Assembly: GCA_951406725.2 (NCBI GenBank)
Contig: OX597815.1
Location: 20,832,001 to 20,896,000, forward strand
Source of the DNA: Octopus vulgaris
Taxonomy: Eukaryota
DNA: 64,000 bases
Reading direction: 5' to 3'
Part shown: one piece after another, positions 50,175-51,942 of the stretch
How the letters are laid out: each line of letters opens with the position of its first letter
Position numbering within the stretch: the first letter of the stretch is position 1
The notes under the pieces: model-generated
Databases searched by the model: none
What the model saw: only the letters and a program-made list of their open reading frames with translations
Told to the model about the DNA's origin: nothing
Position numbers and translations under genes: made by a program

Positions 50175-50352
50175 GATGTAGGCATGGTAAAGTAAGAGTT
50201 GTAAAGTATATTAAAATGACACTCTACTCCACCTCAGACCAGTCTGTTGATGACAGTATAAACAGCCGGGCATGGAGTGAAACTCAGAGTACATTGCCAA
50301 ACTATACGTTTATAGGGTTGTACTGAGAAAAAAGAATACTTAGTGTGAGGAA

Positions 50353-50569
50353 GGCGGCGAGCTGGCAGAATCGTTAGCACGCCAAGCAAAATGCTAAGCG
50401 GCGTTTCGTCCGTCTTTACGTTCTGGATTCAAATGCCAACTGGTCCACTATACCTTTCATCATTGTGGAATCGACAAAAAAGAAGTACTGATTGAGCTCA
50501 GAATCGACATAATCGACTTAGCCCCTTCTCTGAAATTGCTGGCCTTGTCCTAAAATTTGAATCAAATGT
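50353..50569 (+). mobile_element. SINE type B with 13-bp TSD
   Basis: TTAGTGTGAGGAA at 50340-50352 and 50570-50582. Confidence 0.92.
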
Positions 50570-50595
50570 TTAGTGTGAGGAATTGTTTATTTATA

Positions 50596-50994
50596 GAAAT
50601 ATTAAAATTTCTAAGTCTCTCTAAAGGAGTACTGGAAATTAACAGTTATCGCCAAGCTAATATGGCAGTCCATAAATATAAGACTAAAGCTGCTGTTGAT
50701 TAACTCCAAGAGGCCATCGCCTCTAGCTAGCTATATGACACACGAACCTGTGTCCATTATAACCTTCGAATAGGGAAATTCAGCCGCTTCCCCTTGCTGG
50801 TCAGGCATCTGCAGACATGTTTCAGAGTATTTGTCCTTTATCAATGCAGAATAGCCAGACCCTTTTCGAAGGTTATAATGGACACAGGTTCGTGTGTCCT
50901 ATAGCTAGCTAGAGGCGATGGCCTCTTGGAGCTAATCAACGGCAACTTTAGTCTTATATTTATGGACTGCCATATTAGCTTGGCGATAACTGTT
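50596..50994. mobile_element. Foldback element: 139-bp inverted arms, central hammerhead, 15-bp TSD
   Basis: Arms 50637-50775 and 50860-50998; TSD AATTGTTTATTTATA at 50581-50595 and 50995-51009. Confidence 0.9.
50809..50849 (-). ncRNA. Type-I minimal hammerhead ribozyme, U3-A8 core variant
   Basis: Minus strand ctgca-TTGATAA-AGGacaaatacTCT-GAAA-CATG-TC-tgcag; GUC triplet. Confidence 0.72.
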
Positions 50995-51942
50995 AATTGT
51001 TTATTTATATGCTATTAAATCGGGTACAGTTGATCATATAAGTAAAACATAGAGCTGAAAGTTAGATTTGTGTAGTAGTTCATATGTCTACTATACAATC
51101 TTTTGTTCAAAAGCGGTTGATGAGATGAATGATCACAAAAACATGAAGATGGCGAAAGAGGTGACTTGTAAATATTTCATAATTTCTTTGTGCAGAACAT
51201 TTTAGATCTAGTCTTCCCAAATTTTCAAATTCACGGAGCATAAAGATACAGCAATGACTATGTGCTGACTTGTGCAATTTCAGCGATGATAGATGGAGCT
51301 TAGATGAACTAGGTGCAAGTTGCCTACTTTTATGAATTCCTATCAGTCTCATATGTTTTACGAATGTCGATCGGTTTGTGTGTTGGGTTATAATTATGTG
51401 TAGGTGTTACACACGCAGAACATTTGCAGACATATATTACAAATTAAGCATAATCATAGAATAATTTCATAAATATAATTGGGTATTCATAACAAATAAC
51501 AGTAACCAAATTAGCTTAAAGACATATCAGTAAAAAAAAGTTTGAAATTAATAATTAATAATGCATATAATTGTATGAAACGTCCAGGTATTCAAAACCA
51601 CTCTGATCATAACTTCGTCTTACTTATCCTTTCCTACCTTTCTCTCTTTGCCATAAGCTTCATTCTTTCTTTTAGCTCCTCTTTCCCCTATTTTCTTTGG
51701 ATTTACGGAAAAGCATTCTATTGTTTTAGCGAGATACACTTTGCTTCGAATCTGATATTACTTATATAATGCACGCATTCAGATTATATGTCAAGCTAGC
51801 TCTATATCTTAAGCGAAATAATCGCGTTAGGTTTAGCTTTTCACTTGATTCTACGTTGAATGTTTTCACTTTTATTTTCAGAAAATCTTTTATTTTGCTT
51901 TTTTTATTAACTATTTCTTTTTGTTACATGTAAAACTGGCAA

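What the first reader, a model, noticed from the sequence alone, without database searches (positions are those of the whole stretch)
50581..51009. Discrete 399-bp insertion: a hammerhead displayed in the loop of a near-perfect 139-bp hairpin, with a 15-bp TSD
Seen: arms differ at only about 6 positions by eye, and the 84-nt spacer holds a complete HHR (5-bp helix I, GUC site). An exact 15-bp direct repeat flanks the unit, with about 40 bp of unpaired extension on the left. Inference: a young, target-primed insertion of the inverted-pLTR type. Its RNA would be a rod-like dsRNA with a self-cleaving apex, and a possible ADAR or Dicer substrate.
Basis: partly seen in the sequence, partly recalled or inferred. 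Interest (0 to 1): 0.8.

Follow-up and report, generated by a model that had tools for sequence, protein, structure and literature searches.

The report
Two-armed retrozyme insertion with Penelope scars
This 399-base hairpin is two clipped copies of a very common 361-base non-coding repeat with a hammerhead (self-cutting RNA) motif, joined head to head and likely pasted in by a Penelope-type jumping-gene enzyme; the hairpin itself is likely a dead by-product, but the regular ends of such copies give a testable picture of how these elements insert.

Summary
In detail: 139-bp arms with 5 mismatches, 84-nt spacer, exact 15-bp TSD, 41-nt one-sided extension. The hammerhead is on the minus strand. 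It is a minimal, dimer-type motif with a U3-A8 core.

The insert is two 5'-clipped copies of an ORF-less 361-362-nt tandem repeat (non-LTR retrozyme type; 1,531 exact unit junctions in this genome), joined head to head. Family copies end at two fixed points 53 nt apart. Of 39 inverted copies with both ends at these points, 37 use one of each. Both arms carry the same subfamily alleles (95% against 54% permuted). In 18 of 37, neither arm contains the other. This fits a Penelope-like enzyme priming both target strands on one RNA (inferred).

A hammerhead in the loop is incidental (1 of 12 junctions in a sample not anchored on it). This copy's helix II is weakened and it has no dimer partner, so a self-cleaving apex is unlikely. 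The insert appears shared by two species labels, so it is not very young. Transcription and editing are untested.

Retrozymes, inverted-plus-tail insertions and U3-A8 are each published. The scan noted this family before in this genome, and the pattern in others.

The parts
50581..50595 (.). Left copy of the 15-bp target-site duplication (AT-rich)
   Evidence: its last 3 bases also match the template beyond unit position 361
50596..50636 (-). One-sided tail: unit positions 309-361, here 40 nt instead of 53 through a 13-nt deletion (plus one unpaired base)
   Evidence: deletion length read from the sequences
50596..50862 (-). Long arm: unit positions 82-361, ends at the outer start point (361)
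50637..50775 (-). Paired part of the long arm (left arm of the hairpin)
50776..50859 (-). 84-nt spacer: the part of the long arm that the short arm does not cover
50808..50850 (-). Minimal type I hammerhead, U3-A8 core (U3 at 50844, GAAA from 50823, predicted cut 3' of 50814), palindromic helix III, weakened helix II
50860..50862 (.). Head-to-head junction of the two arms (unit positions 82 and 169), 3-bp microhomology
50860..50998 (+). Short arm: unit positions 169 to about 308, ends at the inner start point; its last 4 bases overlap the TSD
50995..51009 (.). Right copy of the 15-bp target-site duplication
   Evidence: contigs of four other runs leave the window sequence at 50995-50997

Best explanation
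The insert is two 5'-clipped copies of an ORF-less 361-362-nt hammerhead repeat (non-LTR retrozyme type) joined head to head between a 15-bp target duplication, likely made in one event by a Penelope-like RT/GIY-YIG enzyme that primed both nicked target strands on the same RNA. Steps: (1) tandem loci are transcribed and the dimeric hammerheads cut out monomers that circularise (inferred from published retrozymes; not shown here). (2) A PLE enzyme nicks both strands of an AT-rich site about 10-15 bp apart (TSD shown; enzyme inferred). (3) One strand is extended from unit position 361 and the other from position 308, 53 nt apart, which leaves the one-sided tail (end positions and their pairing shown; simultaneous priming inferred). 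(4) Both cDNAs stop early, here at positions 82 and 169, and are joined through a 3-bp microhomology (shown in the sequence). The hairpin is simply the overlap of the two copies. The hammerhead is in the loop because the short arm stopped before it. This copy most likely does not self-cleave and is not a spreading unit.
For: Family: 344 exact matches to a 35-nt hammerhead pattern, 0 control; 1,531 exact tail-to-start junctions, 0 control; arrays of up to 5 units at 360-364-bp spacing, 99.2-100% identical within and 86-99.7% between arrays. Upstream of unit position 1 lies the tail in 30 of 32 blocks. tblastn with 40 PLE proteins hits 1 of 75 loci, a 28-aa fragment beside the repeat. End pairing 308/361: 19 of 21 and 18 of 18 in a separate sample; pooled 37 of 39, p 1.4e-9 against 0.5; single-direction copies use both ends (12:8 and 10:3). 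Arms agree at 655 of 689 subfamily-variable sites over 43 loci against 54% in 2,000 permutations, maximum 69%. Neither arm contains the other in 9 of 19 and 9 of 18. Whole hammerhead in the unpaired part: 1 of 12 junctions in the 3'-anchored sample. Loop-3 hexamer palindromic in 111 of 124 motifs in three main versions, U3-A8 in 121 of 124; inter-unit helix III predicted at P 0.83-0.999 in four tandem arrays and 0.61-0.87 in a fifth. PLE proteins nick and extend both strands, start internally at two sites that define the tail, prefer AT-rich DNA and do not need hammerhead cleavage (PMC11167929). An abundant PLE with a 781-codon RT/GIY-YIG frame, a U3-A8 hammerhead with the same loop palindrome and its own two ends is in this genome.
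Against: No autonomous partner was tied to the family by sequence: blastn and a profile of the monomer found no pLTR homology in the 66 PLE loci held, only inserted copies of the repeat itself and one weak hit, E 2.6e-4, not followed up. The tail is 53 nt against 30-40 nt in described PLEs and about 36 nt in the local PLE. In this very copy the short arm lies wholly within the long arm, so fold-back of one cDNA is not excluded for it. 17 of 56 inverted copies had an end elsewhere and were left out of the 37-of-39 count. Three of the 18 'neither' cases miss containment by under 20 nt. Arm concordance could also come from gene conversion between inverted repeats. A first arm test (within-copy identity against the best other copy) favoured the own arm in only 4 of 42; it is biased by taking the best of many. 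In vitro PAc showed no difference in start site between strands. A circular template is not proven: a homogeneous multimeric transcript fits as well. 8 of 9 Xenopus retrozyme dimers did not cleave in vitro.
Confidence: 0.72

Rival explanations
1. Same family and PLE-type enzyme, but the hairpin arises by fold-back or self-priming: one cDNA is made, snaps back and is copied in reverse, and the endonuclease trims the second end at position 308.
For: This copy's short arm lies inside its long arm. Arms share alleles. Some junctions sit on small palindromes (L050, L081, L011). Self-priming was proposed for head-to-head PLE repeats in Adineta (PMC3846280, passage), and EN-mediated resolution for the tail (PMC8557442, passage).
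Against: In 18 of 37 copies neither arm is contained in the other, which one folded cDNA cannot give. Position 308 is also the end of 11 of 33 single-direction copies that end at either point.
Confidence: 0.14
2. The 399-bp hairpin with a hammerhead in its loop is itself a spreading unit (a fold-back mini-element or MITE-like subfamily) whose rod-like RNA cuts itself.
For: The best DNA hits often have the hammerhead in the loop, and junctions near 82-83/163-170 recur (L001, L038, L004, L008, L010). Outer ends are fixed.
Against: Those hits were chosen by likeness to the query. Junctions vary widely. The loop hammerhead points either way relative to the tail. Hairpins occur in several subfamilies, each with matched arms, so they are made anew. 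TSD length varies and the two ends are unequal. Helix II is weak here.
Confidence: 0.05
3. The repeat is the pLTR of an autonomous PLE family that my searches missed, and this is an ordinary stub of that element.
For: The anatomy equals that of PLE stubs. Only 150 of 6,136 GIY-YIG candidates were scored.
Against: Long copies cycle back into the tail (30 of 32 blocks), form 5-unit arrays and have 1,531 exact tail-to-start junctions. No locus of 75 runs into an RT/EN frame.
Confidence: 0.07

Closest known systems
Metazoan non-LTR retrozymes (Cervera and de la Pena 2020, PMC7229834: passages and Discussion read; Li, Clavereau and Pollet 2026, bioRxiv 10.64898/2026.07.22.740005: parts 1 and 3 of 5 and passages read, supplements closed)
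   Same: Short non-coding tandem monomers with a type I hammerhead; mussel and axolotl units are of similar size; axolotl motifs work better as dimers; PLEs are proposed as the mobilising enzyme.
   Different: Here the hammerhead has a U3-A8 core, and copies show two fixed ends, inverted arms and TSDs. In the main text of the first paper 'inverted' and 'target site' occur 0 times; in the second 'tail' 0 times and 'inverted' once, in a reference. Cleavage and circles are shown there, not here. This locus is a partial, two-armed copy, not a tandem.
Complex insertions of endonuclease-positive Penelope-like elements (Pen2a_Av of Adineta vaga, PMC3846280, passages; PMC8557442, passages)
   Same: Inverted 5'-truncated copy head to head, tail at one end only, TSD of 8-10 bp there, microsatellite bias.
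   Different: No RT/EN frame and no detectable pLTR homology; tail 53 nt; TSD mostly 10-15 bp; the unit is a circularly permuted monomer.
PAc (Poseidon of Anolis) in vitro mechanism (PMC11167929: main text, parts 1-2 of 4, read)
   Same: Two internal start sites that define the tail, both strands cut and extended, AT-rich targets, hammerhead cleavage not needed.
   Different: That work saw no strand difference in start site and no homology to the cut DNA. Here the two sites are paired in 37 of 39 inverted copies, and ends often share 2-4 bases with the target (not tested against chance).
Minimal PLE hammerheads, including the U3-A8 variant of Schistosoma Cercyon (PMC4209133: parts 1-2 of 4 read)
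   Same: U3-A8 covariation, palindromic loop 3, dimer-type, pairs of motifs 100-700 bp apart on opposite strands.
   Different: Here the motif is in a tandem non-coding monomer, and three loop palindromes interchange between subfamilies.
L1 twin priming (recalled, no call)
   Same: Both target strands prime on one RNA, giving a 5' inversion with a TSD.
   Different: L1 inversions copy non-overlapping parts of the RNA and start at a poly(A) tail; here the arms overlap and start at two fixed internal sites.

Membership tests
Metazoan non-LTR retrozyme | Short tandem monomers with a type I hammerhead in two or more consecutive units | tested here: met
   Family level: arrays of 2-5 units at 360-364 bp, each with the motif. 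This locus alone is a partial copy.
Metazoan non-LTR retrozyme | No coding capacity | tested here: met
   No family ORF; PLE-protein hit in 1 of 75 loci, outside the repeat.
Metazoan non-LTR retrozyme | Self-cleavage of the transcript | not testable with these tools
   Only covariation and folding.
Metazoan non-LTR retrozyme | Accumulation as circular RNA | not testable with these tools
   Needs RNA data; near-identical units within arrays are compatible with it.
EN+ Penelope-like insertion pattern | Adjacent inverted, 5'-truncated copy | tested here: met
   This locus and 56 of 92 sampled family loci (30 of 52; 26 of 40).
EN+ Penelope-like insertion pattern | Tail at one end only | tested here: met
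   37 of 39; length 53 nt, longer than the 30-40 described.
EN+ Penelope-like insertion pattern | Variable TSD at AT-rich or microsatellite sites | tested here: met
   15 bp here; 10-13 bp non-simple TSDs at 8 others of 25 loci; many copies lie in TA runs.
Autonomous Penelope-like element | RT plus GIY-YIG reading frame | tested here: not met
Non-autonomous derivative of a named PLE family | Sequence homology to that family's pLTR | tested here: inconclusive
   None beyond the hammerhead core in 66 PLE loci held; only a small share of PLE copies was examined.
MITE / DNA transposon | Equal terminal inverted repeats, fixed short TSD, constant interior | tested here: not met
   Unequal ends, variable TSD and junction, single-direction and tandem copies.
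Minimal type I hammerhead | Core letters with a 3-8 pair, helices I and II, palindromic helix III | tested here: met
   Family. This copy keeps the core but has two changes in helix II.
Minimal type I hammerhead | Second motif in cis for the active dimer | tested here: not met
   One motif only in the 64-kb window by my descriptor.

The most novel reading that the evidence does not exclude
Animal retrozymes are pasted in by Penelope-like enzymes through coupled twin priming: two RT units on one RNA circle start 53 nt apart, one on each strand of a staggered cut, and can roll round the circle several times. This single rule would give the tail, the head-to-head repeats and the tandem arrays of the whole class. 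The insertion scars of this family (37 of 39 paired ends, matched alleles, non-nested arms, near-identical arrays) would be the first direct genomic record of it that I could find in print.
Probability: 0.5. Interest if true: 0.65.

Novelty: new variant of a known kind. Interest (0 to 1): 0.42.

Why it matters
Two questions are stated as open in the papers read: which enzyme moves animal retrozymes (PLEs are 'a strong candidate', PMC7229834; support so far is co-occurrence and pLTR phylogeny, bioRxiv 2026.07.22.740005), and how PLEs make tandem and inverted insertions with a one-sided tail (PMC8557442). A 361-nt RNA with two mapped start points and more than a thousand insertions is a small substrate for both. 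The hairpin at this locus matters little in itself. As a by-product, more than half of the sampled insertions are long inverted repeats, which would be dsRNA wherever they are read through.

Tried and rejected
Rfam: no hit at gathering score in the window, six unrelated weak hits at E up to 10 around the locus. Expression: no RNA holder listed among 24 runs; this says nothing either way, and I laid no RNA run. The A>G differences come from DNA contigs of other copies and are not editing. Empty site: no joint skipping the insert was among the 15 joints shown (92 not shown); the loose letters at the site were not displayed, so I have not read an empty allele. Depth sums were not used as copy numbers. 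Host gene: Pfam on 36 of 70 window ORFs of 110 aa or more gave no cellular gene, only weak or low-complexity hits and an aspartyl-protease fragment. Partner search: GIY-YIG search, 16 fetched regions, blastn and nhmmer found no homologous pLTR. The PLE and repeat side by side in L122 are separated by a TA run and point towards each other, so I read them as separate insertions. The within-against-best-other arm test was biased and was replaced by a permutation test. The idea that 5' ends pile up at the hammerhead cut (unit position 130) was rejected: only 2 of 94 counted ends fall in 120-139, with peaks at 80-99 and 160-179 (that tally includes a few spurious junction rows). Paper searches: 'Penelope' + 'twin priming' + 'inverted' gave 2 unrelated papers; 'retrozyme' + 'inverted repeat' 8 listed; 'retrozyme' + 'Penelope' + 'target site duplication' 8 listed; 'octopus' + 'Penelope' + 'hammerhead' 4 listed; 'hammerhead' + 'U3-A8' 1; PLE + both strands + dimer + tail since 2022, 2. 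Those not named as read were seen as listings only. Subscription journals are largely absent from the library.

Full report
Observation. The described features are in the sequence. Arms at 50637-50775 and 50860-50998 are 139 nt long and 84 nt apart with 5 mismatches. The 15-bp direct repeat at 50581-50595 and 50995-51009 is exact (chance about 3e-6). It encloses 399 bp, of which 41 nt on the left have no partner. The fold is far beyond shuffles (z -33.5). The hammerhead is on the minus strand at 50850-50808. It was the only hit of my descriptor in the window, and Rfam does not detect it. It has U3 and A8 in place of C3 and G8, a variant described in Schistosoma PLEs (PMC4209133), and a palindromic helix III of the kind that works as a dimer.

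The family. The own genome (2.8 Gb) holds many relatives: 95 matches from 40 scored of 2,461 candidates, 344 exact matches to a hammerhead pattern, 509 to an arm pattern and 1,531 to the junction between the end of one unit and the start of the next, each pattern with 0 control matches. Mapping copies on one 361-nt unit from L023 shows a circularly permuted monomer: upstream of position 1 lies the unit's own 3' end in 30 of 32 blocks. Arrays of up to five units are 99.2-100% identical within and 86-99.7% between arrays. No family ORF was seen, and 40 PLE proteins hit only a 28-aa fragment next to 1 of 75 loci. The hammerhead looks selected at family level: 121 of 124 motifs keep U3-A8 while position 7 varies, and 111 of 124 loop hexamers are palindromes in three main versions. 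In tandem copies of one subfamily the inter-unit helix III is predicted at P 0.83-0.999 in four arrays and 0.61-0.87 in a fifth. This meets the sequence definition of a non-LTR retrozyme; cleavage and circles are untested. The host looks octopus-like; that rests on my recall of the neighbouring SINE and on earlier AI notes, not on a test.

What this locus is. It consists of unit positions 82-361 on the minus strand (50862-50596) and 169 to about 308 on the plus strand (50860-50998), joined head to head over 3 shared bases. The extension is the segment 309-361, shortened from 53 to 40 nt by a deletion. The spacer is the part of the long arm that the short arm does not cover.

How the family inserts. 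I sampled loci in genome order by three different anchors, removed 8 duplicates from the first two, and classified ends. 56 of 92 were inverted. Ends fall at position 308 or 361. Single-direction copies use both (12:8 and 10:3; 3 others end elsewhere), so independent choice would give under 50% mixed pairs. Among inverted copies with both ends at these points, 19 of 21 and 18 of 18 are mixed (pooled p 1.4e-9); 17 inverted copies with an end elsewhere were left out. The two arms of a copy agree at 655 of 689 subfamily-variable sites in 43 loci, against 54% when arms are permuted, and share 48 rare variants against 7 expected. Hairpins therefore arise anew in each subfamily from one source molecule or locus; later gene conversion cannot be excluded. 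In 18 of 37 mixed copies neither arm is contained in the other, which a single cDNA folding back cannot produce; three of these are near misses. The window's copy is nested, so for it alone fold-back remains possible. Non-simple TSDs of 10-13 bp flank 8 others of 25 loci; many more lie in TA runs where a TSD cannot be read.

Mechanism. The published in vitro work on an anole PLE shows nicking and extension of both strands, two internal start sites that define the tail, AT-rich targets, and no need for hammerhead cleavage (PMC11167929). The simplest reading of my counts is that such an enzyme primes one target strand at 361 and the other at 308 on the same circular or multimeric RNA, and that the two cDNAs are joined where they stop. 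End positions, pairing, allele sharing and TSDs are shown; the enzyme, the circle and simultaneous priming are inferred. A candidate enzyme exists: a PLE family with 781-codon frames bearing RT and C-terminal GIY-YIG (its Cys-rich linker suggests the Neptune group, judged by eye), a pLTR with a U3-A8 hammerhead and the same loop palindrome (685 pattern matches), and two ends of its own about 36 nt apart. I found no further sequence homology to the repeat, so the pairing is unproven.

The hammerhead in the loop is incidental: it is seen in 1 of 12 junctions in the sample anchored at the 3' end, and it can point either way relative to the tail. It recurs among close hits because 5' ends cluster at 80-99 and 160-179, on either side of the predicted stem that carries the motif. 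This copy has two changes in helix II, predicted at P 0.07 against at least 0.97 in a family monomer, and no second motif in cis. Single minimal motifs did not cleave in vitro. A self-cleaving apex is therefore unlikely. On age: contigs of X1 and X4 (organism A) and X5 (organism B) run from the right flank 26-30 bases past the TSD into the element, just under the tool's 31-base rule, and X4 and X5 differ from the window at 14 of about 336 bases. Contigs of X7, X8, X11 and X15 (organisms C, D, E) leave the window sequence at 50995-50997 and continue for 28-67 unlike letters, as expected of empty sites, though I did not see those letters. Other copies have identical arms (L054, L058, L060). The insertion is recent in the genus sense, but not among the youngest. 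ADAR or Dicer action would need read-through transcription, which I could not assess.

Comparison and novelty. The inverted copy with a one-sided tail and TSD is described for PLEs (PMC8557442, PMC3846280; passages). Retrozymes and their proposed PLE partners are described (PMC7229834; bioRxiv 2026.07.22.740005), and so is U3-A8. I found no paper that reports PLE insertion scars on retrozymes or the pairing of the two start sites; supplements of these papers were not read and may bear on this. Earlier AI notes of this scan reached like readings for other copies in this genome and for PLE stubs in other genomes. I saw them after my own tests; they are not independent support.

Verdict. Real feature; a probably dead, two-armed insertion of a known kind of element in a new variant. 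The interest lies in the family's insertion rule, not in this hairpin. Interest 0.42.

Noticed in passing
window:50340-50582: A SINE-like repeat (about 50353-50564, very high contig depth; likeness to an octopus SINE is recalled) has its own 13-bp direct repeat at 50340-50352 and 50570-50582, which overlaps the element's left TSD by 2 bases: two insertions at almost the same nick.
   Followed up: partly
L111:1-5172 (G000:C16:20835000-20840171): Full-length PLE with an upstream ORF, a 781-codon RT/GIY-YIG frame and 99%-identical pLTRs; many intact 781-codon copies genome-wide, so probably recently active. Its hammerhead is U3-A8 with an AT-only, weak helix I.
   Followed up: partly
L118:1321-4483: A second PLE family with a 766-bp, 100%-identical inverted repeat, tail on one side only, and a hammerhead-like motif whose core reads C at position 4 (seen by eye).
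   Followed up: no
L036:850-1925: A repeat arm abuts a PLE ORF fragment, and the joint appears again in inverted form about 900 bp away: a nested or re-mobilised chimera.
   Followed up: partly
G000:C1 (first 100 of 1,401 matches): Besides this family, many other minimal hammerhead-like motifs with the same loop palindrome, including C3-G8 versions in small families; control 90 matches.
   Followed up: no
L171, L172, L174, L182 and the window: The short arm stops at unit position 169 in several unrelated loci, next to an 11-bp internal inverted repeat that closes the hammerhead-bearing stem: a likely RT stall point.
   Followed up: partly
window:9591-10040: Weak aspartyl-protease Pfam hit (E 3.7e-4), probably an LTR-retroelement fragment.
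   Followed up: no
window:49630-50175: About 550 bp of (ATGT)n microsatellite 400 bp left of the element.
   Followed up: no
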